From Octopus vulgaris (taxonomy: Eukaryota): a stretch of DNA of 64,000 nt. Positions 8,633-63,817 of the stretch are shown here, piece by piece. The first letter of the stretch is position 1. Every line of letters starts with the position of its first letter. The DNA lies in the NCBI GenBank assembly GCA_951406725.2, contig OX597822.1, positions 74,524,001 to 74,588,000 of the forward strand, in the 5' to 3' direction. The position numbers were made by a program, and so were the translations under genes. The notes below the pieces were generated by a model. It was not told the origin of the DNA, searched no databases, and was given only the letters and a program-made list of their open reading frames with translations.

Positions 8633-11329
8633 GTTAGAGCTTTTTCTCTCTCTCTTGCTTGCTTGTCGTTTGTTTTTCTTTTCTTTCTTTTTTACCTAGC
8701 TGTTTTCGATTATAGAACTACAGCCTTACTGGCAGGGCACCATACTAGAGGTTTCAGTTGACTCTATCAACACTTGTTTCATCATCATTTAACGTCTGTT
8801 GCCCATGCTGGCATGGGTTGGACGGCTTGACCAGAGTTGGCACGCTGGAAAGCTGCACCAGACTCCAGTCTAATTTGGTGTGGTTTTCTACTGCTGGATG
8901 CCTTTCGTAACACCAACTGCCTCAAGTGTGTAATGGGCACTTTTATATGCCACTGGCATTGGGTTCCATTTGCATGACACCGGGGCACTTTTACGTGCCT
9001 CCGGCACAGGTGTGACGCTGATATCTGTCACGACTGCAATTTTGCTGGGCTTGATGGGTCTTCTTCTCAAGCACAACATAATGCCAAAGATCTGTTATTG
9101 CCGCCGTGAGGCAATTGTATTTATTTTATCAATTTCTACTACGGGGACGTAAACACACCAGCATCGGTTGTCAAGCGATGTTGGGGGGGACAAACATTTA
9201 CACATACATATATACAACAGGCTTCTTTCAGTTTCTGTTTACCAAATCCACCCACAAGGCTTTGGTCAGTTATAGTAGAAGACACTTGCCCTAGGTGTCA
9301 TACAGTGGTACTGAACCTGGAACCATGTGGTTGGTAAGCAAGCTACTTACCACACAGCCACTCCTGCATCTACACTTTATAAATTTCATGAAACTACTGC
9401 AATTTATTTTCATTAATTGTTTTTTTTTCTTTCGTTTCTTTAACTCCTGTAACAAATTTTTATACAATAAAATTTATTAAAGAAAACAAACTTTTGTACT
9501 ATAAAAATTACTAAATTAAAAAGAGTGTTAATTCTGCCACACCCTGCATGTACCCTACTAAAAGTAATGAGTAATTCTTCAATTTAATGTTAAACTGATG
9601 AACAGGGCCTTAGGTTCAATTCAGGCAGCTATGTGAAGCTGGTGGAGAGGGTTGCTGCTCAAATGCCATATGTGTAGCCACAGGATTTGGCGCCTTGCCA
9701 TATCCTCTGAAAGTGTCAGAAGTGGTTGTTGGCGAATTTTTACAACTTTATCAGCCCAAGTTTCTGGCCTCCTCATTCCCCCCCTCCCCATTGTAATCCC
9801 ATAGATTATTATATGTAGGGCACAACTGAGAAAGAGACCAACCCCTCTGTCTGCAACAGCAAGGCTAAGCTGTTGGCTTCCTAAGGATTCTGAAGAACAC
9901 ATGAGCCATGGTGAAAGTTGAGTTATCTCCCATCTATAGTCTAGGTTGGTGTCTTTCGATTTTTTTTTTAAGATACTTTAATTTTTGGATGGGATATTGT
10001 GTTTTTGTTTCCTTTATGCAGACTGTCAAATTCATCCCAAACACCCTCTAGACACACATACACACACACACATCAGTCATTCATTTTACATGTTGGCATG
10101 GGTTAGATGAATACATATCAAACCATTGTTTTATGGTTGGGTGTTCTTTCTGCCATTAACCCTCATCTGTTTTTCAAGTAAGGAAAGTTTTCATTCTCCT
10201 TGTCTTTGAAGGAGTAGAGCCACCTTACAATTTATTGACAGCAGAATGACAGCAACCAATATCTTGTTTAGTTCAGCTGATGATGATGATAGTGCGTGTG
10301 TGTGTATATATATATATATATATAAAATGTACATGTGTAGAGAGAGAGAGATGTGTAACATGGGTTTTGTAGTTCCCATCACTTACAAGGCCTTGGTTAG
10401 CCCTAGGTTGTAGTAGAAGATACTTGTCCAATAACCTCCAATTTTCCATGTTTGCATAGGTCAGACTGAATTTGTTGAGACAGATTTCTATGGCCAGATG
10501 CCCTTCCTGCTGCTAGCCCTCACCTGTTCTCAGGCAAGGTAATATTTTCTCATGGCCAGATATGCTTTCCACTGTAGACTGGATACAAACAACCTTGCTC
10601 AAGATGACAGTGCTCATTTACAATCATCGTATGATGTCTTGACAAGAGTATGCACAAATCCATATACACACATACATGGGTGTGGATGTGTGGTAAGAAG
10701 CTTGCTTCCCAACCACATGGTTCCGTGTCCAGTCCTACTGCGTGGCACCTTGGTCAAGTATCGTCTACTATAGCCTCAGGTCAACCAAAGCCTTGCAAAT
10801 GGATTTAGTCAACAGGAAATGAAAGAAACCCATATACATACATACATATATGTGTGTGGATCTCTGTGTTTGTCCCCCACCGCTGCTTGGCAACCGGTGC
10901 TGGTATGTTTACATCCCCTGTAACTTAGTGGTTCAGCAAAAGAGACCAATAAAGTAAGTACCACGCTTTAAAAGATAAGTGCTGGGGTTGATACATTCAA
11001 CTAAAATTTTATGGCAGTGCTCCAGCATGGCCACAGTCGAATGACTGAAACAAGTAAAAGATATACTCACTGTGCGAGAAAAGCCATTGCCAAGAAGACT
11101 TACTGAAACACTGCCAGATCAAACTGGAGCCTGGTGTGGCTTCCTGGCTTCCCAGACCCCGGTCGAACCATCCATCCCATGCTAGCATGGGAAGCAGACA
11201 TTAAACGATGATGATGATGATATATATATATATAAAATGAGGAAATAAGTGGGATAATTATTTCCCACTTGTAATAATTATAAGCATAACTAATTAGCGC
11301 TCATAGCCTCAGGAATTTAAAATCAACCC

Positions 11330-15259: not shown

Positions 15260-15757
15260 GTGAAGTGAAAGGACTCAACTACTGGCCACATTGTTTTGCA
15301 TTTAAAAAGTTTTAATGCATCTACTGAGTGGTTGGTGTTAGGAAGGGCATCCAGCTGTAAAAATCCTTTTCTACTCTAGGCCCGAAATTTTGGAGGCAGT
15401 CAATTAGATCAACTCCGGTATGCAACTGGTACTTAATTTATTGACCCTGGGAAGAGGAAAGGCAAAGTCGACCTTGGTGGAATTTGAACTCAGAACGTAA
15501 AGTCAGATAAAATACTGCTAAGCATTTCACCCAGCATGCTAACGTTTCTGCCAGCTCACCGCCTTAAGCTGTAAAAGTCCTGCCAAAACAATCACAGGAG
15601 TCTGGTGCAGGCTCCTGTCAAACCATCCCACCCATACAAGCATGAATAGCGGACATTAAATTATGATATATCAAGACACCTATTGTGTTGTTTCTCTTGG
15701 ACAAAATACAAGAATTCTGCTTACTCCATTTTCATCCATGCTGGGCATAGCTTGGAC

Positions 15758-16040
15758 AGTTCTATATTTAAGAGACAAGGAATTATGTACATTATTTACA
15801 TTTGATGGGCATATGGCATGGTTAAGAGCACGGGCTGCTAACTCCAAGATTCCGAGTTCAATTCCAGGCAGTGACCTGAATAATAATAATAATAATAACA
15901 TCAAAAAATACCTTAGGAATGAGAACCCAGGTTCGAAATTTCCCCAAGACACCTGAAGAAGGCTGGAGGGTATATCAGCCGAAACGTGTTAACAACAAAC
16001 AAGATAAGAACAAATATCTGTCAAATGTAAATAATGTATA
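15758..16040 (+). mobile_element. tRNA-head/hammerhead element with inverted 5' tail (DHFR intron 3)
   Basis: Same family as 43770; the HHR at 15948-15990 lacks the GTT cleavage triplet. Confidence 0.75.
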
Positions 16041-16917
16041 GGTTGGACAGTTTGATAGGGGCTGGCCAGCTGTAGAACTGCACCATCTGTTTTGGCATGG
16101 TTTCTATAGCTGGATGTCCTTTCTAATACCAACCACTTTACAGAGTGTACTGGGTGCTTTTTATGTGGCGCAGACATGGACATATCTTGTGTAGCACCAG
16201 CACAGCTACTGTTCACATAGTGCCAGCATATGTGCTTTTGATGTGGCACCAGCACCAGTAGATGTAGATTTTTTAGAAGAGGGAGAAATGGTAAATGTGT
16301 GTTGTTTGCACCTTTTGGGTGGGGTGAAGGAATATATATGCCACAGAATCCAGGAGACTAGTCCTATGAGTCTAGGGCTCAGGATGGAAGATTGTTGGTC
16401 CTTTTTTTGTACTATTTCCAAGCAACGTTATTAAATTGAAAATTCCTCAAAAAATTAAGAATCATAGGTAAACAGGCACAGGCATGGCTGTGTGGTAAGA
16501 AGCTTGCTCTCCTGCCATATGGTTTCAGGTTCAGTTCCACTGCATGACATCTTGGGCAAGTGTCTTCTATAGCTTTGGGTTGACTAAAGCCTTGTAAGTG
16601 GATTTGGTTGATGGAAACTGAAAGAAGCCCATCATGTAGATATGTATGTGTGTGTCTGTTTGTCTCCCCCCACCATCACCACTTGACAACCGGTGTTTGT
16701 GTGTTTACATCCCCATAACTTAACGGTTCAGTGAAAGAATTCCTAGGGTCGATTTGTTTGACTAAAACCCTCCATAAAACAATAAAAGTTGATTTGACCG
16801 TTTCCTGAAAACTTGTCTTATTTTGTATAGAACTTGTTTCCCTAAACTTCCTATAGAAATTTATTCACATCTTACTCACCTTTCATTTTCTCTCTCCCTT
16901 TTTTATTCTTCTTCTAG

Positions 16918-17041
16918 CAATGCTCCTGAAGGAGCTCACCTTGCCAGAGATTTAAAAGAAGCTATCGATTTATTCCAAAATGGTTCCATCAAAGATAAAG
17001 TGAACAAGCTTTTTATTATTGGTGGCAGCGGAGTGTACCAA
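16918..17041 (+). CDS. DHFR: DHFR exon 4 (124 nt, NAPEGAHLARDLKEAIDLFQNGSIKDKVNKLFIIGGSGVYQ)
   Basis: FIIGG..VY motif; long pyrimidine tract plus TAG acceptor; GTAAGT donor. Confidence 0.97.
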
Positions 17042-17524
17042 GTAAGTTCCAGATCTTTGGTTTACTTCCTTGTTTTGCTTTCTTTGTTACCTTTATGGCC
17101 TGAAACTGATAGTCAGATCCCAATTACCAACATCTTTAAAACATTATCAGGCGTGGCTGTGTGGTAAAAAGCTTGCTTCTCAACCACATGGTTCCCGGTT
17201 CAGTCTCACTGCTTGACACCTTGGGCAAGCGTCTTCTATTATAGACAATAGTGGGTGGCAAAAATGGATGGATGGATGTTAATATTTAGAACCCTTTTGA
17301 GGAGGTGCCTGAGGACTCTACCCCCAAGGCCCACGGAGGAATAGTGGGTGGGAAAAATAGGTTAACTTTGCTTTGCATCCTTCTGTATTAAAATAAGAAC
17401 CTGTCAGTATAATCAATGATATCCATCACCTAAATTTAAAGTGTACTGCTTATTTTACAAATTATTTAGATGTGTCGGCTAGGATAACAAATGTCTTCAT
17501 ATTTTTGCTTTTCATTTTCTCTAG

Positions 17525-18999: not shown

Positions 19000-19437
19000 A
19001 CAGTTCTATATTTAAGAATTGAGGAATTATGTACATCATTTACATTTGATGGATATTTGTCCTCATCTTGTTTGTTGTTAACACAACGTTTCAGCTGATA
19101 TACCCTCCAGCCTTCATCAAGTGTCTTGGGGAAATTTCGAACCTGGGTTCTCATTCCTAAGGTATTTTTTAATGTTAGCGTTAGTATTATTGTTGTTGTT
19201 GTTATTATTATCATTATTGTTGTTGTTGTTATCATCATCATTCAGGTCACTACTTGGAATTGAACTCGGAATCTTGGGGTTAGTAACCTGTGCTCTTAAC
19301 TACATAACCTTAGGAATGAGAACCCAGGTTCGAAAAATTTCCCCTGGGGCACTTGATGAAGGCTGGAGGGTATATCAGCCGAAACGTTGTGTTAACAACA
19401 AACAAGATGAGGACAAATATCCATCAAATGTAAATAA
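19000..19437. mobile_element. Inverted pair of tRNA-head/hammerhead elements (DHFR intron 5)
   Basis: HHR(-) 19080-19125 and HHR(+) 19348-19393, both with a TTGATGA core. Confidence 0.75.
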
Positions 19438-21990: not shown

Positions 21991-24229
21991 CATAAGTTTC
22001 CACTAGTTCAACCACTACTGACTTCACCCCTCACTTTTGCACAAACTAGTGAGATTAATGCATTCAGTACACAGCCTGAACATCAGCAGGTTGATATTTT
22101 GTTAGAAAAACACAGGAAATGAACCAGGTATGAATGCTTGCAATAAAGTCACATAAGTAGTTCCATTTCTCTAAAACTTTTGGTTTCGATGTGTATATAA
22201 ACAGATTGGTTGCTTGCTTTCCTGTGATGTTTGCTCATCATCAGTCTGGAGTAGACTGATGATGACCAATGGCTCTGAAATTAATCTCTGGATGCTAGCT
22301 TTGCTAAGTGGAGGTGCTTGTCTACACTTTGAAGACATAAGGACACAGGAAATGTGTCGTGTCCAACAGCAAACGGTGTTTCCTAGGGCTAAATAGCAGT
22401 AGCATTCTTCCCTTTCATGGGACTTTCACATTGACAACATACTATCACTTTAAATATTATCTTGTTTGGGAACAGATGAGTGTTGGGGCAAGGAGAGCAT
22501 CTGACCATAGAAATTCAGCTTCAACATATTCTGTCTGACCCACGCAAACATCAAAAAGCGGGCATTAAATTATGACGATGATGATGATGATGATCTTGGT
22601 TGAAAGAGATAAAAAGGAGTGGTTTGTGCATGAGGACAGAAAAAAGTTAGAAAAGGGAAGTGGAAAAAAATTATCTTGTTCAATATTTTGTACAGAAAGA
22701 TCAAGTTTCTTATCTTTCATTCCTCTCTACTCAAGAAATTGCAATTGAGTTCAGCCTGATATTCTGGATCTAAGAGGTTTGGCATCCTGTTTTCAAGTGA
22801 GTAAGCATGTTGTATTCATGATTTGAATATAAATTGGGTTTCAAATGTCTGTTCATCATCATCATCATCATGATCGTTGTTTAATGTATTTTCCATGCTG
22901 GCATGGCTTGGATGGTTTTTACTCGGGACTGTCAAGCCAGTAGGCTGCACCAGACTCCAATCTGATCTGGCAATGTTTCTACAGCTGGATGCCCTTCCTA
23001 ATGCCAACCACTCCGAGAGTGTAGTGAGTACTTTTTACATGCCACTGGTACAGGAGCCAGTCAGGCAAGCCTGGCATCAATCACATTTGAATCGTGCTTT
23101 TTATGTGCCACTAGCACAAGAGCCAGTCAGGGGGTACTAGCATCGGCCATGTTTGGATAGTGCTTTTTACATGCCACTGGCACAGGAGCCAGTCAGGCGG
23201 ACCTGGCATTGACTGCATTTGGATGGTGCTTTTTATGTGCCACCATCACTGTAGCCAGTCAGGTGGACTTGGCATTGACCACATTTGGATGGTGCTTTTT
23301 ATGTGCCACCAGCACAGGAGCCAATCAGGTGGGCCTGATATTGACTGCATTTGGATGGTGCTTTTTACTTGCCACCAGCACAGGAGGCACTGGCCACAGC
23401 TACGATATTGGTTTTACTTGACTCGACATCTTCTCAAGCATATCATATCGCACAATGCATCAGGGGTACCTTGTATACCATGGAGAATTTCGTTAATATG
23501 GATTGAATGAATATATACATTGGCCCTTGAATTTGTTTTCTCCTCTCCTTAATTTTATATGTATATGTATATTACATATTCCTACTTAAGTCTGTCATAA
23601 GTTTTGTTTATAGAAAATAAGATACTTTTTGCCTTTGTCCAAGAACACAAAGGTAAACATTCTTCTTCACAAATGACTAACTGAGATACTTCATAATGCC
23701 ACATCAGAAATTCCTGTCTCTTTGGAATGTCCTCAATCTCATGTTGTGCATCTCTGCCTCTAGTATCAGTTATCTTTTAACATTTAAATTGGTCACGTCC
23801 TGCTGAAATATCCAACCTGTTTTATGTTCAAACAGGCTAGATCTGGCCATTTACACTACCCCTAAGTCATTCTAAAAATTTTTTTAAAATACATCATCAA
23901 AATCTCAAAGCAGCAAAATATTCTATAATTAAATCAAAACAAAATGTTTAGATAAGAACTGCATTTAATAGAATAATCTGAATTTTAAAGGGTCAACTAT
24001 TCTTCATTTCCCTCCATTCCTTTTTTTTTTTTTTTTTTTTTTTTTATTCAGAGTGGTAGTCTCCATGATATAATAATTTATATGGCATCTCTACCACTAA
24101 CATTCTTTCTATGAGAGTAGAAATTTCTTGGATATAATTGACATGGTGTCTCTGACAACAGGATTAACTGAGTGATCCTCATCCTGCTTTAGGCTGTGGA
24201 AGTCTCCAGAATAAACAACTTTATGGCTT

Positions 24230-24520
24230 TATTTACATTTGATGGATATTTGTCCTCATCTTGTTTGCTGTAAACACAATGTTTCAGCTGATATACCCTC
24301 CAGCCTTCATCAGGTGTCTTGGGGAAATTTTAAACTTGGGTTCTCATTCCTAAGGTATTTTTCGATGTTGTTGTTATTATTAAATGAGAACTCAGGTTCG
24401 AAACTTCCCCAAGACACCTGAAGAAGGCTGGAGGGTATATCAGCTGAAATGTTGTGTTAACAAGATGAGGACAAATATCCGTCAAATGTAAATAATGTAC
24501 ATAATTCCTCATCTCTTAAA
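24230..24520. mobile_element. Inverted pair of the same hammerhead element, head deleted
   Basis: HHR(-) 24273-24318 (CTGATGA core) and HHR(+) 24413-24458 (CTGAAGA core). Confidence 0.75.
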
Positions 24521-29272: not shown

Positions 29273-29595
29273 ACAGTTCTACATTTAAGAGATGAAGAAT
29301 TATTTACATTTGACGGATATTTGTCCTCATCTTGTTTGTTGATATACCCTCAGGTGTCTTGGGGAAATTTCGAACCTGGGTTCTCATTCCTAAGGTATTT
29401 TTCGATGTTATTATTATTATTATTATTTAGGTCACTGCTTGGAATCAAACTCAGAATCTTTGGGTTAGTAGCCTGTGCTTCTAACCACTATGCCATATGC
29501 CCAAGACACCTGATGAAGGCTGGTGGGTATATCAGCCAAAACGTTGTGTTAACAACAAACAAGATAAAGACAAATATCCATCAAATGTAAATAAA
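29273..29595. mobile_element. Inverted pair of the same hammerhead element
   Basis: Tail(-), internally deleted HHR(-), tRNA-like head(-), then HHR(+) 29505-29550 with GAAA mutated to AAAA. Confidence 0.7.
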
Positions 29596-29802
29596 GTAAG
29601 GAAAGGGTTAAACATTTACCTACTTTAGATTTGTGAGCAACATACCTAATATCTCCATGGAAGTGTCGTTAAGGAACTTGCTCTGCAACCATGTAATTTG
29701 GTGTTCAGTATCATCGTGCATGAAGCACCTTGGGCAAGTCTCTTTTACAGTAGTCTCAAACTTCTTAGTTATGCAACCATACTTGTGAACTTTTTGTAGT
29801 TA

Positions 29803-29939: not shown

Positions 29940-32394
29940 CCAAACAATTATTCTGTGCTGATGAAGAGAAATAACCCAGAAATCGCGATGCACAGATATT
30001 GTTTTGAACTGAGTTGAGGTGCTAGATTCCCTTGTTCGAAAATGTAAGGACACAGATCGTGTCATATAGCCAGCTGGAGATGTCTCCTGGGGCTAAATTA
30101 CAGCAACATTAGTCCTAAACCAGGACTGCCATGTTATGTTGGCAAATAATCTTTACTACAAAGTACTGTTGCTGAATATCTCTTGTTGTGAGATTAAAAA
30201 ATAGTAATTTTCTAATATCCAAGAATGCTTACTGCATGAAACCTAAATAGTAAATTGGACATACTTGGTGTACAAAGTTCAAGATTTTTAATTGATTAAT
30301 TAAAATATATCAGCAGTGATAATAACAATAAATATCTAAATGATTAGTGGAGGTGAGTGGCTTAGTGGTTGGGGTGTTGGACTCATGATTATAAGATTGT
30401 GGTTTCAATTCCTGGACTGGGTAATGCATTGTATTCTTGAGCAAAACACTTCATTTCACATTGCTGTGGAGGTGCATGGCTTAGTGGTTAGGGTGTTGGA
30501 CTCATGATCCAAAGATTGTGGTTTCAATTCCTGGACCCATTGATGCATTGTGTTCTTGAGCAAGACACTTCATTTCACATTGCTCCAGTCCAGGCGAAAA
30601 TGAATAATCCTGCAATGGATCAGCATCCCGCCCTGGTGGGGAATATATACGCCACTGAAACCAGGAAACTGGTCCTTATGAGCCTGACATGGCTCAAGAA
30701 GGTTACATTTATTTATTTATCTAAATGATTAATGTAAGACAATTAGCTGGTAGAGTCGTTAACACACAGGGCAAAATGCTTACTGGTATTTCATACACCT
30801 TTTCACTCTGAGTTCAAATTTTGGCTAGGTCAGCTTTGCTTTTCATCTTTTCAGGGTCAATAAAATAAATACCAGTTGTGTACTGGGGTCGATGTAATTG
30901 ATTTATCCTCTCCCCTGAAATTGCTGGCCTTGTGTGAAAATTTTAAACTAATATCTAAATCATTAATGTAAAGCAACAAGCTAACAGAATCATTGTTGGG
31001 CAAAATGCTTAAAGGAATTTTGTCTATCTATACATTCTGGGTTCAAATTCCACCAAAGTCGGCATTGTTTTCCATCCTTTTGGAGTTGAAAAAATAAATT
31101 GAGTCTGAGCACTGGGGTTGATGTAACTGACTTCCCCACTTCCCCCTGAAATTGCTGACCTTGTGCCAGATTTTGAAGTTAACGTCTAAACCAGTGCTTC
31201 TCAACCAGGATCCATATGACCTCTGGGGGTTCATATAAGGCTTTTGGGGGCCCAAGCAAGGAAAATAGTAAATTGGGGACAAATGGTAGTACTTTAGGAG
31301 TCTGTGTATTTATTGCAAGAATCAGCTAGGTTTCATTCTCTGACATTTCACATCGATTAATATGTTTCTGGCCTCCGGAACATGTTCTCTCAGAGATTTC
31401 TTTTGCAAACCTCAAAGGTGCAGGAGTGGCTGTGTGGTAAGAAACTTGCTTACCTACCACATTATTCCAGGTTCAGTCCCACTGTGTGGCACATTGGGCA
31501 AGTGTCTTCTACTATAGCCTCAGGCCGACCAAAGCCCGGTGATTGGATTTGGTAGGCAAAACTGAAAGAAAACTGTCGTATATATATATATATATATAGG
31601 TGTGACTGTGTGGTAAGAAGCTTGCTTCCCAACCACATGGTTTCGAGTTCAGTCCCACTGCATAGCACCTTGGGCAAGTGTCTTCTACTATAGCCTTGTG
31701 CCAACCAAAGCCTTGAGAATGGATCTGGTTGATGGAAACTGAAAGAAACCTGTCGTATATATATATATGTTTGTGTGTCTGTATTTGTCTCCCCCCCCAT
31801 CACTTGACAACTGATGTTGGTATGTTTATGTCCCCATAACTTAGTGGTTCGGCAAAAGAGACCGATAGAATAAGTACTAGGCTTACAAAGAATAAGTCCA
31901 GGGGTTGATTGGTTTGACTAAAATTGGTGCTCCAGCATGGCTGCAGTCAAATGACTGAAACAAGTGAAAGAATAAAAGAATTTATATATATATGTGTGTG
32001 TGTATGTATGTATGTATGTATGTATCTGTCAGTCTGTGCGATGTGAGGTGAAGAGAATGGCTCATTAGTACTACATCACATGGCCATTACAATAAAGAGA
32101 AATTGAATGGAACAAATAAGTGCCAGAGGGCAAAGGAGACACAACTGCGTAGAATTATTAAGAGAACATTTATTGATATATTAACATGTGTGCGTCATGT
32201 ATACAGAATAGACAAGCCATCATGGGAACAAATTGTATGTATGTGTGAGTGTTAAGAACATATAATGATGGCAACAAGAAGGAACAGTGAAAGAGTCTCT
32301 AGCCATTGAAGTGAAGAGTAAGTTCATTGACACAAGGAAGATAATGCCAGTTCATAGTCAATAGTACACAGTAGGTGAAATGTTGAAACCCCAC

Positions 32395-35641: not shown

Positions 35642-37016
35642 GTAAGTGAAGAAAGATTTTATCGTTCGAAATCGATCATCTTTTAAAAGATATTCTTTTT
35701 TTTTTTTTTGTACATAGATAGGTTCCTAGGAAACAGAGAAGTAGGTAAGGCGGCTCTGTTTTACGTGCGGACGAAAATATAATAGGTCCAGCTGAGAATC
35801 TAAACCGGAGTTGCGGTCTTTATTTGAATAAAGCAAATACTTCTTAATGCTTTAGTTGTTGCAAAAGATCCCTGATAATCCATTACTTGGGCCTCTGACT
35901 TAATTTATACTACACGACGATTTTTTCATATGCTTTTAATTCAAGTTTCTGTGGTTGAGAACTGAGACCATTCTTAATATTGATTAGTATCTATCTATCA
36001 TTCTATCTGTCTGTCTAACCTTAATTATCTATCTATCTATCTATCTATCCACACACACACACACACATATAGACAATTAAACAAATGTATATTGTGAGAT
36101 CGAAAAAGTGGTGGATTAAAAATTCGAAGGAGAAAGTGCTTATTGTATTTCCACGTGGAAGGTTATGCAATATGAATATAGAATCAATTATATTAGTATT
36201 TATTCCGACATTCATAGTTCAGTGGTTATTCATTTCCTTGAATAGGCGCCGAATCACATCATATCACGTTTGTATGATAGAAAAGAAATTAGGTTAGTTA
36301 CGACTTCGTCAAAAAGAATTAATCATTTGAATAAAAGAGACACGGTTATCTAAACTGAAAATGCAAACGAAAATCTAAACTGGTTGTCGGTCTCGTATTT
36401 CCCGGAATTTGTGGATATCGAACAAGAATCACAGCTCTTGTTGCACTAAATTCTGAACAGTTGCCGTATTTACTCGTGTATACGTTACACCGATTTGTGC
36501 CTGATTTTATCTGAAAATACTGGGGTGCGACTTACACGCGGAGCAAAGCTAAAACTATGAAGGAAGAAAAAATTGCACCAAGATTTAGTTATGCGATTTA
36601 TGCAGTAATAACACCCGTTTGCAATGAGTTTAAAATTTGTCCGGTTTAATTTTGTCTTTCATTCTTCCGGAATCAAAGAAAAAGTGCCAGCTGTTTACAC
36701 TTTATTACATTAACCATTTCTCCTCCCCACCACCACCACCACACACACGCACACAAAAAGAAAGTGTATGGTATTACACCTCACACCGTACATATCCGGG
36801 TCGAGTGCTGGTTTAAATACCTTGTGGTAATAGTTACATTCCTTTGCGGTATAGACGTAACATTGAGGTCCCGCCTTCAAACCAGGGGGAGTTAATGCAA
36901 ACACTGAAGATACTTTCATAGAGAAAATGAAAGCACTATTATCAGCTGGTAACAATTAACAAAATTAATTTTTTTTATAAACAGAAATGTTTATAAAGGC
37001 GCAGGAGTGGCTGTGT

Positions 37017-37162
37017 GGTAAGTTTCTTGTTTACCAACCACATGGTTCCGGGTTCAGTCCCACTGCGTGACACCTTGGGCAAGGGTCTTCTACTATAGCC
37101 TCGGGACGACCAAAGCCTTGTGAGTGGATTTGGTAGACGGAAACTGAAAGAAGCCCGTCGTA

Positions 37163-37208
<46 letters not shown>

Positions 37209-37420
37209 TGTGTGTGTCTGTGTTTGTCCCCCTAGCATTGCTTGACAACCGATGCTGGTGTGTTTATGTCCCCGTTACTTAGCGGTTCGGCAAAAGAGAC
37301 CGATAGAATGAGTACTGGGCTTACAAAAGAATAAGTCCCGGGGTCGAGTTGCTCGATTAAAGGCGGTGCTCCAGCATGGCCGCAGTCAAATGACTGAAAC
37401 AAGTAAAAGAGTAAAAAGAG
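37017..37420 (+). mobile_element. tRNA-derived SINE, dominant family (representative full-length copy)
   Basis: GGCGCAGGAGTGGCTGTGTGG head with A/B-box-like motifs, central (TA)n(TG)n, 3' CAAGTAAAAGAG tail. More than 20 copies or fragments, e.g. 140-575(-), 835-1300(-), 10675-11065(+), 14235-14582(-), 19862-20212(+), 26881-27272(+), 31417-31975(+), 38938-39362(+), 39705-40135(-), 49297-49718(-), 53348-53712(+), 56170-56576(-), 56836-57266(+). Confidence 0.9.
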
Positions 37421-42054: not shown

Positions 42055-43477
42055 CATCATCATCGTTTAATGTCTGTTTTCCATGCTAGCATGGGTTGGA
42101 CGGTTTGACCGGGGTCTGGGAAGCCAGGAGGCTGCACCACGCTCCAGTCTGATGTGGCAGTGTTTCTACAGCTGGATGCCCTTCCTAGCGCCAACCACTC
42201 CGTGAGTTTAGTGGATGCTTTTTATGTGCCACCGGCACAGGTGCCAGGGGAGGCTGGCAACGGCCACAATCGGTTGGTACTTCTAACGTGCCACTGGCAC
42301 GGGTATCACAACTACAATTTCCATTTGATTTTTTTTTTTTTTTTATGTTGTGGTACTTGACTCAATAGGTCTCTTCAAGCACAGCAGACCGTCCTTCAAT
42401 CCAAAGTACTTTGGATGGGCTGGGGCTTCTATGTGAAGCTGGCACAGGAAACAGCCATGAACTCATGGTATTTGTTGGGTCTTCGCAATCACAGCATATC
42501 TCCAGAGGTTTCTGTCTTTCATCATTGCCTCTGTGAGAGCCAACATTCGAAGGTCATGCTTGACCACCACATCGCATGTCTTCCTAGGTCTACCTCTACC
42601 CCGGATTCCTTCAACTGTTTGGGAGTGGCACTTCTTCGCACATCTCTCCTCATCCATCCATAGTACATGACCATGCCAGCGCAGACGTCTCTCTTGCACG
42701 CCACATCCAATGTTTCTTATGTCCAGCATTTCTCTCAGGGCACTTACACTCAGTCGTGTATGCACACTGACATTACACATCCAGTGGATCATGCTAGCTT
42801 CATTTCTTTCAAGCCTACGCATGTCCTCTGCAGTCACAGCCCATGTTTCACTACCGGGCAGCATAGCAGTTCGCACACATGCGTCGTACAATCTACCTTT
42901 CACTCTGAGCGAGAGACCCTTTGTCACCAGTAGGGTTAGGAGCTTTCTAAACTTTGCCCAGGCTATTCTTATTCTAGTGGTAACACTCTCTGAGCATCCA
43001 CCCCCACTACTAACTTGGTCACCTAGGTAGCAGAAACTATCAACTACTAGTTTCTCCCCCAGGAGTATAATGGAATCTGTTTTCTGAGTATCAATGGTGT
43101 CTATTGCACCTGTGCATCTGCCACACATGAAAGCTATCTTCTCGGTTAATTTTCCTTTGATGGTGCTGCACCTCTTATGTGTCCATAGCTTACACTGAGT
43201 CCATCTTATGGAGTTTCTACCCACACCTTTTCTACAAATCGAGTAGGGCCACCTGCCTGAAGGGGTGTGTGGTGTGTTTGCCTTCCTACTTACTAGAACT
43301 TTGGTCTTTGCTACATTGACTGTAACGCCTTTTGATTCTAAACCTAGCTTCCACACCTAAAATTTCTTTTCTAGTTCCAGTAGTGATTCTGCTATGAGTG
43401 CCAGGTCATCAGCATAGAGGAGCTCCCAGGGGCAACCCATCTTGGGAGCTCCTCTATGCTGATGACCTGGCACTCAT
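42055..43477 (-). mobile_element. 5'-truncated RTE-clade LINE: RT C-terminus, 3'UTR and (ATG)n tail
   Basis: WELLYADDLALIAES upstream of the 297-aa ORF 43356-42463 (VNVAKTKV, F.YLG, RI..AW..F, GSETW, RLRWHGHV, RGRGRPRKT). Confidence 0.92.
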
Positions 43478-43714
43478 TAACACATATATATTCTTTTATT
43501 TGACAGCGGCCATGCTGGGGCACCACCTTGTAGTCAAACAAATCGACCCCAGGACTTATTCTTTGTAAGTCTTGTGCTTATTCTCTCTGTCTCTTTTGCT
43601 TAACTGCTAAGTTATGGGGATGTAAACACACCAGCATCAGTTGTTAAGCGATGGTGGGGGGACAAACACAGACTCTATCTCCCTTTCTCTCTCTCTCCCT
43701 CTCTCTCTCTCTCC

Positions 43715-43769: not shown

Positions 43770-43931
43770 ACAGTTCTATATTTAAGAGATGAGGAATTAT
43801 GTACATTATTTACAATTGATGGATATTTGTCCTTATCTTGTTTGTAGTTAACACATTTCGGCTGATATACCCTCCAGCCTACATCAGGTGTCTTGGGGAA
43901 ATTTTGGATATTTTTATTATTACTATTATTA

Positions 43932-43979
<48 letters not shown>

Positions 43980-44264
43980 GGTCACTGCCTGGAATCAAAC
44001 TCGGAATCTGGGTTAGTCGCCTGCACTCTTAACCACTACGCCATATGCGCGGGCATATGGCGTAGTGGTTAAGAGTGTGGGTTACTAACGTCAAGATTCC
44101 GAGTTTGATTCCAGGCAGTGACCCGAATAATAATAATAATAATAACAACAACAACATTGAAAAATACCTTAGGAATGAGAACCCAGGTTTGAAATTTCCT
44201 CAAGACACCCGATGAAGGCTGGAGGGTATATCAGCCAAAACGTTATGCTAGCAACAAACAAGAT
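43770..44264. mobile_element. Head-to-head pair of tRNA-head + (AAT)n + hammerhead elements
   Basis: Order is tail(-), HHR(-) ~43850-43892, (ATT)n, tRNA-like head(-), centre ~44050, tRNA-like head(+) with TGGCGTAGTGG and GTTTGATTCC boxes, (AAT)n, HHR(+) ~44204-44250; inserted in (TA)n. Confidence 0.8.
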
Positions 44265-44924: not shown

Positions 44925-45630
44925 CATCACCATCGTTGTTGTTTAATATCTGCTTTTCATGCTGGCATGGTTTGGACGGTTTGACTGAGGACCGGCAAGC
45001 CAGGAGGCTGCACCAGGCTCCAATCTAATTTTGCAAAGTTTCTACAGCTGTGTACTTTTTATGTGCCACTGGCACGGGAGCCAGTCAGGTGGCACTAGCA
45101 TCACCCATTCTCAAATGGTGCTTTTTATGTGCCACCAGCACAAGTACCAGTAAGGTGGCACCAGCATCGGTGATGCTCAAATGGTCCTTTTTATGTGCTA
45201 CCAGCATGGGTGCAAATCAGGTGGCACTGGTGTTGGCCATGACTACAATTTCACTCAATTCAACAGGTCTTCACAAGCACAGCATATTGCCCAATGATTA
45301 AAGGGTGCTTTCAAATGGGCCAGTTATGTGTCACTGGCATCAACCACGACTAGGATCTCACCTCGCTTGCTGGGTCTTCTCAAGCACAGCACATCTCCAA
45401 AGGTCTTGGTTGCTTGTCATTGTCTCTGTGGGGCTGAACATTTGAAGGTCGTGCTTCACCACCTCAATCTGTGTTTTCTTGGGTTTACCTCTTCCACAAG
45501 TTCCCTCCACTGTTAGGGTGTGACAGATCTTCACACAGCTCTCCTCATCCATCTGATGCTTCTTATGTCTGACTTTTCTCTCAAGGTGCTTACACTCTAT
45601 TATGTATGCACACTGACATTACACATCCCA
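44925..45630 (-). mobile_element. RTE LINE 3' fragment
   Basis: VEGTCGRGKPKKT..EVVKHDL peptide plus the family 3'UTR. Confidence 0.8.
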
Positions 45631-52872: not shown

Positions 52873-55819
52873 AGCAAAGTAGCTATTAGCAACAGAAGCA
52901 CCCTTTGTAATGAATGTTAATTAGAACGTTCAACTTAACACGGATATGTTGTTAAGAACAGCATAGACTGCAGTAATCTTTATGAGATATCCTCTTGTAT
53001 AGACATTAGGTTCTATAAATAACATAAATCATATCTATACTTTTTATAACACCTAATATCTATCAATGTTCAAAATGACACATCCAAGTTAAGAAGGATG
53101 TACCAATTAATATTCAGTCATTTATTAAATTGATTTAAGTATTCAATCTTTTAGTTTTAACTTTGATATCCTTTAGTGCTGTACTTCTAAACCAGGGTCC
53201 AAATAAGATTTTGTTGTTAAAATTTATAAGCAATAAATTGCTTGTACTTACTTCTACAAAACATAAAATATTTTATAGTGTTTTTTTTATGCAATTCTTA
53301 ATAATGTTTAATCATAAAAATACCACAGGATTTTTTTTTATATAATAAGGTGCAGGAGTGGCTGTGTGGTAAGTAGCTTGCTTACCAACCACATGGTTCC
53401 GGGTTCAGTCCCACTGTGTGGCACCTTGGGCAAGTGTCTTCTACTATAGCCTCAGGTCGACCAAAAGCCTTGTGAGTGGAATTGGTAGACAGAAACTGAA
53501 AGAAGCCCATCATATATATGTGTGTATATGTTTGTGTGTCTGTGCTTGTCCCCCTAACATCACTTGATAACCAATGGTGGTGTGTTTATGGCCCTGTAAC
53601 TTAGCGGTTCAGCAAAAGAGTATGATAGAATAAGTCCTGGGGTCGATTTGCTCGACTAAAGGGGTGCTCCAGCATGGCAGCAGTCAAATGACTGAAACAA
53701 GTAAAAAAGTAAAGGGGGTGCTGAAAAGTTCCTGGCATTGGGTAAAAGAAAATACAGGAGGATCAGTTAATTATGATTTTATTCAACATATTCCCCTCTC
53801 AGATTCACATATTTATTACAGCAGTCCTTCAGTTTTTCTAAGCCCTATAAAAGAACTTGGAAAGTTAGGCCTCCAACCAGGCCTTTAGTGATACGATACC
53901 GTTAAAGCCAGGAACTTTTCAGCACCCCATTGTACATCGAATGACTATGGGGATCTAGTAGAGTGAAATAGGAATCAAAGGGCTCCATAGACAAAAAACA
54001 GTTGAGAACCACTGTTTTAGGGTGCTAAACAAAAAATGTTACAGATTTTCTTTTATAATGTTTTTGCCACCTGACTAGCTCCTGTGCCCGTGACATGTAA
54101 AAAGCACCATTCAAGCATGGTTGATGCCAGTGCTGACTGACTGGCTCCTGTGCTGGTGATACATAAAAAGTACCATTCAAGCATGGTTAATGTCAGTGAC
54201 ACCTGACTGGCTCCCATGCAGATGGTATGTAAAAAGCATCATTTGAGCAAGATCAATGCCAGTGCTGCTTGACTGGCTCCCATACTGGTGGCACATAAAA
54301 ACCACCACTTGAGCATGGTCGATGCCAGTCCCACCTGACTGGCTCCTGTGCCAGTGGCATGTAAAAAGCATCATTCGAGTGTGGTTGTTGCCAGTCCTGC
54401 TTGACTGGCTCCCATGCCGGTGACATGTAAAAAGCACCATTCAAGCGTGGTCGATGCCAGTACTGCCAGTGGCACGTAAAAAGCACCCCCTACACTCTCA
54501 GTGGTTGGTGTTAGGAAGAGCATCCAGCTGTAGAAACCTTTCCAGATCAGATTGGAGCCTGGTGCAGCCCCCCGGCTTGCCAGTCTTCAGTCAAACCATC
54601 CAACCCATGCCAACATGGAAAGCAGATGTTAAACGATGATAATGATGATGATGATAGTTTATTTCTTTTGCATTCTTATATTTTCATAGACTTTTGATTA
54701 AAACAGTTCTTTTTTAAATTTCCAAAGTCTTGTTGTTTGCTTGCTTGAAGTTGGTTGTGTGGTTAGATGCAGGCATGGGTGTGTGGTTAAGAAACTTACT
54801 TTGCAGCTAAGTGGAACAGGGTTCAGTCCCACTGTATGGGAACATTGCAAGTGAATTTGCTAGACAAAAACTGTGTGGAAGCCCACCATATATGTGTGTG
54901 TGTGTGTACACATACTCCACTTTGCAACTGGTGTTGGTTTGTTTATGTCCCCATAACTTGTTGCTCAGCAAAATAGTCCGACAGAATAAATACCAGGCTT
55001 AAAAATAAGTACAGAGGTCAATCTGTTTGGCTTAAAAAGAAAACCTTTAGGATAGTGCCCCAGCATGGCCACAGTCCAATGAATGAAACAAGTAAGAAAA
55101 ATGCCTCAGAGACACAGTTATGTTCTTTAAAGTCAAACTTCAACAGGTTTGAATGGCACAAAATATCCTGATGACTTCCATTAACTGTCCATGTTGTGTG
55201 CTTTCAATCGATGTCAGAAATATTTGATTAATTTGAAACACAGGAGTTCAAGTCCAAGAGGGAGTCGATGTCGATGGTACCATAAATTGATAAATCAATG
55301 TCTGCGTCAATACTGAATCAGTCACTTCTTGTTTTCATGTATTGTGTTTGAGAAGTTTTGATGAGGTTATCAATATCTGGTGTGTTATTTCTTTTGTATT
55401 TCTTTTTTAATTTGCCTTGATGGATGTATTTTTAGCCACACCTGTAATTATTTACTTAGATGCATCTGCTGCTAACTGTGCAATTATTGAATTCTGAAAA
55501 CCTGTACCAGATGTTATCTGAACAGGTGACTTTGATAAGTATATTGCCAGTTGCCAGGGTTTCTGAATGACATCAAAGCTGTTGGTAGATAGACTTTTTT
55601 ATGACATCCAACAGCTGCTATTTATTGTTCATGGTATTGCACAATACTGTTTAGACTGCAATAGTTAAACTAAAGAACTAAATGGGGAAAACAAAAGCAT
55701 ATATAACTAAGCTCAGCTTGGTGGGGGACAATTACTAATAATGTGTCAGGAGTTTTGAAGTAAGCAGAGAATGGTACCAACACCAAACAGAGAGTTTGAT
55801 AGAATAATCAGTCTGAAGT

Positions 55820-62915: not shown

Positions 62916-63239
62916 AGAAGAGAGAGAGAGCTTTGGTTGCCAACAGATATTATTATTTATATTGTTGTTTTAATGACTATTATTGGCAATAAAGGATGAT
63001 GGTTTATTGATTAAACATAATTTGCATCCCTGGGAGAATGTTGTCTGAAGAAATGTCACCTTTGTAAACTGCTTATTTTATACATTCTCATTCCTAAGGT
63101 ATTCTATAGTGCTAAACTGCTAAGCTACAGGGACATAAACAAACAAACACAGGTTATAGAAACAGTAGGGGAGGACAAGCAAAAACACAAAGACAAGCAT
63201 ACACTCACATATGTACACACACACACTGATGTTATTTCC

Positions 63240-63650
63240 CAAGTCCCTGCCTGAGATTGAACTCAGAATCCAAGGGTTAGTAGCCCACGCTCTTATTCAC
63301 TACGCTATATGCCCATAGGCAATTATAGAGTGAATTTTGGGCTTATAAACCTAATATTTTATCTTTTCTTAATACTGGTTCCCATATTACATTCATAACT
63401 GCATTAGATCTGTTTAGGAGGTTATTGTGTCAAAGTATATGTGCAGCCTCTTTTAATAACATCAGAAAACAAATACTTTAAGAATGAGAACAGCATACTC
63501 CTTTACTCAAATAAAGGGTTGGGTTCGAAATTCTGATGAAGGCTGGAGAATACACCAGCCAAAACGTTGTGGTAACAACAAACAAGGTGAGGACATATAT
63601 CCGTCCAATGTAAAGAACGTACATAATTCTTCATCTCAAAAATATAGAAT
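63240..63650. mobile_element. Older divergent copy of the tRNA-head/hammerhead family just upstream of DFPase exon 3
   Basis: tRNA-like head(-) ~63243-63313; HHR(+) CTGATGA-A-GGCTGG(AGAATACA)CCAGCC-AAAACGTT at 63533-63568; family tail to ~63650. Confidence 0.65.
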
Positions 63651-63685: not shown

Positions 63686-63817
63686 GTTGCAACATGTGAT
63701 TCGACTGGTCAGTGTATGCAAGGCTGCAATGACTGTGCTTTTGATTATCAAGGAAATCTTTGGATTACAGCTCCAGCAGGAGATATTGCCCCAGCACCAT
63801 TCAGGCGATCAATGGAG
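63686..63817 (+). CDS. DFPase exon 3, 44 codons (VATCDSTGQCMQGCNDCAFDYQGNLWITAPAGDIAPAPFRRSME); gene continues beyond the window
   Basis: MQGCNDCAFDY.GNLWITAPAG matches squid DFPase, including calcium ligand N120; TTTAG acceptor and GTAAGT donor. Confidence 0.95.

What the first reader, a model, noticed from the sequence alone, without database searches (positions are those of the whole stretch)
43770..44264. tRNA-promoter + hammerhead chimeric element: a candidate Pol III-driven retrozyme/PLE-SINE
Seen: the unit is a tRNA-like head (GGCATATGGCGTAGTGGTTAAGAG...GAGTTYRATTCCAGGCAGTGACC), an (AAT)n linker, GACAC-CUGAUGA-A-GGCUG(GAGGGUAUAU)CAGCC-GAAACGUU/GUGUU, and a conserved tail. The consensus over the six loci (15758, 19000, 24230, 29273, 43770, 63240) restores a canonical core; individual copies carry lesions, often at CpG sites. 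Every locus is an inverted, head-to-head arrangement. Known: inverted 5' pseudo-LTRs and hammerheads are PLE hallmarks, whereas typical SINEs borrow LINE tails. Inference: a SINE-like element mobilised by Penelope machinery and processed by its own ribozyme. I do not know of a description of this in cephalopods.
Basis: partly seen in the sequence, partly recalled or inferred. Interest (0 to 1): 0.9.

Follow-up and report, generated by a model that had tools for sequence, protein, structure and literature searches.

The report
Penelope retrotransposon with tRNA-derived promoter

Summary
It is the ~272-nt pseudo-LTR of an autonomous Poseidon-type Penelope-like element (PLE). The tRNA-derived head (Arg is the best match) starts 31 nt after the stop of an RT + GIY-YIG frame. 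The frame's ATG lies behind the (AAT)n linker and reads through the minimal hammerhead and tail into ~825 codons. Exact probes find 8,313 hammerhead halves, 4,356 heads, but only 771 copies of the 22 nt upstream of the head. 31 of 37 independent heads begin within 7 nt upstream of tRNA position 1. Likely mechanism: Pol III transcripts start at the head and PLE reverse transcriptase primes at two internal tail sites. This gives inverted pairs with the tail on one end (64 of 70, never both) and 10-15-nt target duplications. No shared TTTT occurs in 2.6 kb, compatible with Pol III read-through, but weak. A recurrent 3-nt deletion over the predicted scissile bond may be a cleavage scar. Both hammerheads and both B boxes at the flagged locus carry lesions. 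Pol III use and cleavage are untested; Repbase/Dfam could not be checked. New variant of a known kind.

The parts
43771..44048 (-). Left arm: full pseudo-LTR copy (unit positions 3-272) with the ~30-nt tail extension
   Evidence: blastn to natural copy L021:1519-1790, 80% identity
43771..43801 (-). PLE 'tail' extension, present on this arm only
   Evidence: one-sided in 64 of 70 two-arm loci, both-sided in 0
43850..43892 (-). Left minimal type I hammerhead; A9 changed (43881) and 3 nt missing over the predicted cut site, predicted inactive
   Evidence: sequence; variant census
43916..43978 (-). (AAT)n linker of left arm
43980..44048 (-). Left tRNA-derived head; A box 44033-44043 intact, B box 43992-44000 with the C56 position changed to T
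   Evidence: tRNA comparison
44041..44060 (.). Head-to-head junction, a near-perfect palindrome centred on the short hairpin at the element's 5' end
   Evidence: fold-back junctions in 9 of 37 independent heads
44051..44123 (+). Right tRNA-derived head; A box 44058-44068 intact, B box 44103-44111 with the C56 position changed to T
44126..44155 (+). (AAT/AAC)n linker of right arm
44175..44177 (+). ATG that opens the PLE reading frame in ORF-bearing copies (frame runs through hammerhead and tail)
44204..44249 (+). Right minimal hammerhead; U4 and G12 changed, two changes in stem I, predicted cut after 44244, predicted inactive
15757..16038 (.). Family locus: inverted tail-only piece plus full arm (unit 1-241), ~12-nt target duplication
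19001..19437 (.). Family locus: minus arm (15-272) plus truncated plus arm (110-237)
24229..24520 (.). Family locus: two headless inverted arms, 14-nt target duplication
29274..29598 (.). Family locus: full minus arm plus truncated plus arm (144-241)
63227..63649 (.). Family locus: minus arm with head, plus arm with hammerhead and tail
63319..63455 (-). 3' end of the PLE RT-GIY-YIG reading frame and spacer, directly upstream of the head
   Evidence: blastn 79% to natural ORF copy

Best explanation
[quoted passage not shown] Shown: the element's order is head, (AAT)n, ATG, hammerhead, tail, rest of an ~825-codon RT + GIY-YIG frame, stop, 31-nt spacer, head again. Shown: 5' ends of copies pile up at the head, 3' ends fall at two sites ~30 nt apart, and arms are usually inverted and bounded by target duplications. 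Inferred: the PLE protein nicks both strands and primes at the two internal tail sites, as the Anolis protein does in vitro. On an RNA that begins at the head this yields 240-270-nt SINE-sized cDNAs without any separate SINE family. Inferred: the cDNA ends in a short self-complementary stretch at -7..+5, which folds back or pairs with a second cDNA and gives the head-to-head inversion. Inferred: the hammerhead is not needed for copying; a cut would remove promoter, start codon and 23 codons, so it more likely limits than enables expression. Copies are ~5% from the column majority and no intact frame was seen, so the family is probably decayed.
For: ORF-head link: 29 of 30 loci found with ORF-end DNA (21 of 22 independent). 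Upstream pseudo-LTR running into the ORF in 8 of 30 loci found with ORF-start DNA; ORF with repeat pieces on both sides in L135, L256, L260-L262. RVT_1 E=1.4e-10; 51 long relatives, best 68%. An 847-aa relative aligns from residue 18 through the hammerhead-coded peptide. Head aligns best or tied-best to tRNA-Arg genes of the same genome in 4 of 4 copies, z 6-8; B box intact in 25 of 37. 5' step: exact probes 771 (spacer) vs 4,356 (head). Of 58 arms chosen by hammerhead+tail only, 25 reach +5; 21 stop in -13..+5 and 4 run on (my count; binomial P 4e-17). 31 of 37 independent heads keep 0-7 upstream nt, and 17 of them keep 3-7, which argues against a cut at tRNA position 1 (my count). L187 is one duplication-bounded insertion running from the head past the tail into the ORF. 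Tail on one end in 64 of 70, on both in 0; duplications of 8 nt or more in 43 of 70 vs 1.8% in mismatched flanks. The same two 3' termini appear as loose ends in RNA reads of organism C.
Against: No direct evidence of Pol III occupancy or a start site. The three RNA runs laid (one study, unstranded, 150 nt) show depth following copy number and no pile-up of molecule starts at the head or cut site. The hairpin at -7..+5 could itself end reverse transcription on a longer RNA. About 18-20% of head copies do carry the ORF end upstream, so longer RNAs were also copied. The junction loop orientation does not tell which arm was made first. Pfam gave no hit for the endonuclease piece and PDB none; GIY-YIG is read from motifs. 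No tree was built.
Confidence: 0.75

Rival explanations
1. Ordinary Poseidon PLE transcribed by Pol II or read-through. The tRNA-like piece is a passenger (an old SINE head caught in the 3' UTR), and 5' ends pile up there because the hairpin or tRNA-like fold stops the reverse transcriptase or triggers fold-back.
For: A 5-bp hairpin sits exactly at the step, and 9 of 37 junctions show fold-back extension. D. virilis Penelope uses an internal promoter with an Inr/DPE layout (PMC2377424 passages). About a fifth of head copies continue into the ORF. RNA reads give no start-site signal.
Against: Ends lie just upstream of the hairpin's far arm, after the enzyme has copied the whole head, and also in copies without fold-back. 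A and B boxes keep canonical sequence and spacing, with the step 13-14 nt before the A box. L187 and L166 begin at the head and run into the ORF. No shared TTTT occurs in the ORF.
Confidence: 0.15
2. One reading: a separate non-autonomous SINE/retrozyme family, Pol III-driven, mobilised in trans by a PLE and cut to unit length or circles by its hammerhead.
For: About 80% of head copies lack the ORF. Solo copies have both boxes and the tail, so some may have been re-copied in trans; my data cannot exclude that. Minimal hammerhead features are present; exact intact motifs in 18 of 210 copies scanned. SM-alpha is a precedent.
Against: The unit is the autonomous element's own pseudo-LTR at the same divergence. 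No tandem arrays of short units were seen in the loci fetched, only partial tandems and inversions. Copies begin at the head, not at the cut site. A cut separates head from tail. The energy model does not favour the double-hammerhead dimer (-24.3 kcal/mol vs -31.4 for the best dimer).
Confidence: 0.1

Closest known systems
Penelope/Poseidon PLEs, e.g. Poseidon_Ac of Anolis (PMC11167929, parts 1-2 read)
   Same: Single RT-GIY-YIG frame that starts inside the pseudo-LTR and overlaps the hammerhead; tail bounded by two RT start sites; partial tandems; inverted truncated copies.
   Different: Here the pseudo-LTR begins with a tRNA-derived A/B-box head plus (AAT)n, the ATG lies upstream of the hammerhead core, and most copies start at the head.
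Schistosome SM-alpha / Sj-alpha (seen only through review passages PMC6765202 and PMC6155905; the 1998 paper was not held)
   Same: Pol III-type promoter followed by a type I hammerhead in a short repeat.
   Different: SM-alpha is described as non-autonomous and often tandem, with a hammerhead that has tertiary contacts and cleaves fast. This unit has a minimal PLE hammerhead, is inverted rather than tandem, and belongs to a coding element.
Animal non-LTR retrozymes (PMC7229834 passages; bioRxiv 10.64898/2026.07.22.740005 parts 1-3, vertebrate-focused)
   Same: Short non-coding copies related to PLE pseudo-LTRs, with type I hammerhead.
   Different: Defined by tandem units and circular RNA; the parts I read describe no tRNA head. 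No tandem arrays were seen here.
TRIMp3 elements Cassandra, Helenus, Ajax (PMC10886601 passages)
   Same: Small-RNA-derived Pol III promoter inside a terminal repeat.
   Different: Those are non-autonomous LTR elements, and that paper argues the autonomous partners must use Pol II and are unlikely to share the repeat. Here the coding element itself carries the head.
Octopus tRNA SINEs OK, OR1, OR2 (Ohshima and Okada 1994; seen only as a reference line, details recalled)
   Same: Recalled as tRNA-derived, two of them from tRNA-Arg, in an octopus.
   Different: One of them might be this short unit.

Membership tests
EN+ Penelope-like element (Poseidon type) | Single ORF with PLE-type RT and C-terminal GIY-YIG endonuclease | tested here: met
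   RVT_1 hit; collinear with an 847-aa relative over residues 18-844; endonuclease motifs read by eye, with no Pfam or PDB hit for that piece
EN+ Penelope-like element (Poseidon type) | Pseudo-LTRs from partial tandems | tested here: met
EN+ Penelope-like element (Poseidon type) | 30-40-nt tail on one end only; inverted truncated copy at the 5' end | tested here: met
   64 of 70 one end, 0 both (many loci were found with tail-bearing queries); 28 of 32 inverted
EN+ Penelope-like element (Poseidon type) | No extra Zn finger in the RT-EN linker (separates it from Neptune/Nematis) | tested here: met
   translations, read by eye
EN+ Penelope-like element (Poseidon type) | Placement in the Poseidon clade on an RT tree | not tested
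   no named reference set; no tree built
Minimal PLE hammerhead (PMC4209133) | Core boxes, extra nucleotide between 9 and 10.1, G10.1-C11.1, 4-5-bp helix I, palindromic 15.2-16.2 | tested here: met
   column census of 210 copies; the main non-CpG core variant is at the free position N7 (T 82%, A 17%)
Minimal PLE hammerhead (PMC4209133) | Large helix II (7-8 bp in the schistosome families) | tested here: inconclusive
   5-6 bp here; 6 bp is reported for D. virilis
Minimal PLE hammerhead (PMC4209133) | Self-cleavage | not testable with these tools
   only indirect signs: deletions and 5' ends near the scissile bond
tRNA-derived SINE | tRNA-related head with A and B boxes | tested here: met
   not called by Rfam or ARAGORN
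tRNA-derived SINE | Non-autonomous family distinct from its coding partner | tested here: not met
   the whole unit is the coding element's pseudo-LTR
tRNA-derived SINE | Transcribed by Pol III | tested here: inconclusive
   5'-end step supports it; RNA reads uninformative
Non-LTR retrozyme / SM-alpha type | Tandem short units, each with a hammerhead | tested here: not met
   no arrays in the loci mapped
Non-LTR retrozyme / SM-alpha type | Unit-length linear and circular RNAs | not testable with these tools
   needs Northern blot or RT-PCR

The most novel reading that the evidence does not exclude
An autonomous, protein-coding retrotransposon transcribed end to end by RNA polymerase III from a captured tRNA-Arg promoter. 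Its 2.6-kb sense strand is kept free of TTTT terminators, its uncapped RNA is translated, and the same promoter spawns tens of thousands of SINE-like solo repeats. Its hammerhead does cut in the germ line: the recurrent 3-nt deletion is the scar of reverse transcriptase jumping across the cut by a 2-nt GU match.
Probability: 0.3. Interest if true: 0.85.

Novelty: new variant of a known kind. Interest (0 to 1): 0.62.

Why it matters
Coding retrotransposons are taken to need Pol II, and SINEs to be separate Pol III passengers; PMC10886601 states both. Here one element appears to be both, which offers a direct route from PLE to SINE-like repeat and may account for some of the many unclassified octopus SINE families (PMC13282606 lists 893 unclassified among 900 recently active). 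Because the template's 5' end looks fixed, the family is a natural data set of tens of thousands of insertions. It bears on two open PLE questions: how inverted 5' copies form, and whether the hammerhead cuts in vivo. Even on the conservative reading it corrects an annotation: these copies are PLE pseudo-LTRs.

Tried and rejected
Rfam and ARAGORN: no hammerhead or tRNA call for the element. PF26215 is not in the local Pfam copy. The metagenome scan found no relative; PDB none. A distant PLE query meant to fetch a control family without a tRNA head returned this family in 30 of 30 loci, so the TTTT test has no outgroup. TTTT test: 0 majority runs in 2,353 ORF columns against ~4 (base shuffle) or ~2-4 (dinucleotide shuffle) expected, but G4 runs are also 0. 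Codon shuffles give P(0) 0.01-0.20. TTC over TTT is significant in 2 of 6 overlapping copies. I therefore treat it as compatible only. Sequencing runs: no RNA holder listed; laid reads were unstranded and showed no start or cut signal. AC versus GT junction loops did not tell strand order. The 3-nt deletion as a subfamily marker was rejected: no linked column except a CpG site that the query carried. Its 24% share in search hits is query bias; the chromosome-order share is 6 of 100. An intron starting in the tail was considered and dropped because the frame is open through it. An RNase P-type cut at +1 was rejected because 17 of 31 ends keep 3-7 upstream nt. Earlier-findings look-ups returned nothing. 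Not held: PMC108972, PMC4795812, PMC5785218.

Full report
Observation. The flagged stretch holds two inverted arms, 43771-44048 (minus) and 44051-44264 (plus), meeting in a near-palindrome. I used natural copy L021:1519-1790 (272 nt) as ruler: head 1-75, linker, body, hammerhead 148-193, tail to 272. The host is a cephalopod by inference: a window exon matches diisopropylfluorophosphatase at E 9e-18 in a 2.8-Gb genome. Exact probes give 8,313 hammerhead halves and 4,356 heads, controls 0. With 41% probe survival (112 of 274) that means at least ~20,000 arms; 4 loci in 400 kb of evenly spaced samples gives ~28,000 loci (95% range 7,600-72,000).

The head. Rfam and ARAGORN do not call it. Against 35 distinct tRNA genes of seven isotypes from the same genome, four heads align best or tied-best with tRNA-Arg, 46-51 identities, z 6-8 against shuffles; the set is incomplete, so Arg is the best guess. 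The A box fits the recalled consensus and the B box is intact in 25 of 37 independent copies. At the flagged locus both B boxes have lost C56. Head and hammerhead are linked in 33 of 40 head-selected loci taken in chromosome order.

The hammerhead. It has the features listed for minimal PLE hammerheads in PMC4209133 (passages): extra nucleotide after A9, G10.1-C11.1, 5-bp helix I, palindromic helix III stub. Over 210 copies the main non-CpG core variant is at the free N7 position. Stems I and II fold as drawn, but the double-hammerhead dimer is not the lowest-energy dimer. Both hammerheads at the flagged locus carry core lesions.

What it belongs to. Two loci had GIY-YIG-like coding sequence directly upstream of the head, as does window locus 63240. 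Searching with that DNA, 29 of 30 loci continue into the head 31 nt after the stop; nine are duplicates of one insertion, so 21 of 22 are independent. Searching with the ORF start, 8 of 30 loci have the unit upstream in the same sense, running straight into the ORF. L135, L256 and L260-L262 carry the whole frame with repeat pieces on both sides. The frame opens at an ATG behind the linker and reads through hammerhead and tail. An 847-aa relative aligns from residue 18 through the hammerhead-coded peptide to the end, and ATG to stop spans ~2,480 nt. RVT_1 hits at 1.4e-10; 51 long relatives were found. So the unit is the pseudo-LTR of a Poseidon-type PLE; the clade call rests on domain order and linker, not a tree. 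All copies read have stops or frameshifts.

PLE signatures. In 70 two-arm loci the tail extension is on one end in 64, neither in 6, both in 0 (many were found with tail-bearing queries). Target duplications of 8 nt or more occur in 43 of 70 against 1.8% for mismatched flanks. 3' ends cluster at 237-247 and 269-272. The same two termini show as loose ends in RNA reads of organism C. This matches the two internal RT start sites reported for the Anolis PLE, whose protein nicks and extends both strands and does not need its hammerhead for insertion (PMC11167929).

The step at the head. The 22 nt just upstream of the head occur 771 times, the head probe 4,356 times; 8 of 40 sampled heads continue into the ORF. 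Among 58 arms chosen only by hammerhead and tail, 33 end before +5, 21 end in -13..+5 and 4 run on (my count); the truncation rate downstream predicts about 3 stops there (P 4e-17). After dropping three duplicates, 31 of 37 heads keep 0-7 upstream nt and none 9-18; 9 of 37 show fold-back extension from the 5-bp hairpin at -7..+5. L187 is a single insertion with a 10-nt duplication that starts at the head and ends 174 nt past the tail inside the ORF. The simplest reading is a transcription start at about -6/-7, 13-14 nt before the A box, as expected for a tRNA-type Pol III promoter (recalled). The rival is a structural stop on longer RNAs. RNA data did not decide: three unstranded runs from one study show depth tracking copy number.

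Could Pol III read the whole element? No TTTT is shared among copies in 2,353 ORF columns, nor in the ruler copy of the repeat, against about 2-4 expected; but GGGG is also absent. Codon shuffles give P 0.01-0.20, and no head-less control family was recovered. This is compatible with read-through, not proof. How an uncapped RNA would be translated is unexplained.

A possible cleavage scar. A 3-nt deletion spanning the predicted scissile bond occurs in 6 of the first 100 probe matches and 25 of 185 arms not selected by a query. It sits on both N7 backgrounds and has no diagnostic partner column. The two arms of one insertion share it in 3 of 21 pairs that have it, whereas they share subfamily variants in 5 of 11 and 7 of 15. 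Other deletions touch that bond 14 times (median 4, maximum elsewhere 8), and 11 of 103 internal 5' ends fall at 186-192 (P 0.054). The deletion is what a template jump across the cut by a GU match would give. Against this, a 3-nt slip in the adjacent AAC repeat occurs 8 times, some arms were query-selected, and replication slippage beside a hairpin is not excluded. I put the scar reading near 40%.

Comparison. Pol III promoter plus hammerhead is described for schistosome SM-alpha (review passages). Pseudo-LTR-derived non-coding copies are described as retrozymes. Small-RNA promoters in terminal repeats are described for TRIMp3, with the stated expectation that coding partners use Pol II. Ten full-text searches showed, from listings and the passages read, no PLE with a tRNA-derived pseudo-LTR. 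The 2026 octopus repeat annotation (parts 1-2 and supplement search) has no hammerhead term in its supplement and no such description in what I read. Repbase, Dfam, SINEBase sequences, that paper's Zenodo library, bioRxiv supplements and most subscription papers were out of reach, so the family may be catalogued under another label.

Verdict. The feature is real and the PLE membership firm. Pol III origin of the short copies is likely (overall confidence 0.75). Whole-element Pol III transcription is open (0.3). New variant of a known kind; interest 0.62.

Noticed in passing
window 63716-63817 (+): Exon matching squid diisopropylfluorophosphatase (E 9e-18); the 63240 insertion lies just upstream, probably in an intron.
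   Followed up: partly
window 16910-17047 (+): Exon matching dihydrofolate reductase (E 8e-5); loci 15758 and 19000 flank it.
   Followed up: partly
window 43393-43478: Long perfect inverted repeat made of RT-like coding sequence at the end of a LINE fragment (open frame 42463-43356, minus); Rfam matches it to a microRNA below cut-off, likely only as a hairpin.
   Followed up: no
window 30350-30540, 10662-10830, 36979-37273 and others: Several other, more abundant tRNA-SINE families; the 30470-30539 head passes Rfam's tRNA cut-off.
   Followed up: no
L169-L193: 11 of 30 copies that run from the tail into the ORF end 229-274 nt past the tail, often followed by another repeat in the same sense. 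This may be a further RT start or jump site, or partly an effect of the query length.
   Followed up: partly
L264, L268, L283, L298, L299, L080, L083: The (AAT)n linker is often hit by later insertions of other elements and expands to hundreds of bases; the family seeds AAT microsatellites.
   Followed up: no
G000:C31 (L108, L114, L116, L118, L121-L125): Nine near-identical copies of one insertion with shared flanks on one contig: a multiplied segment or an assembly feature.
   Followed up: no
window 23025-23423, 45049-45249, 53999-54526: 66-nt tandem minisatellite family in several places.
   Followed up: no
window as a whole: Six loci in 64 kb is about nine times the density in the 400-kb sample; the window holds exons of at least two genes.
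   Followed up: no
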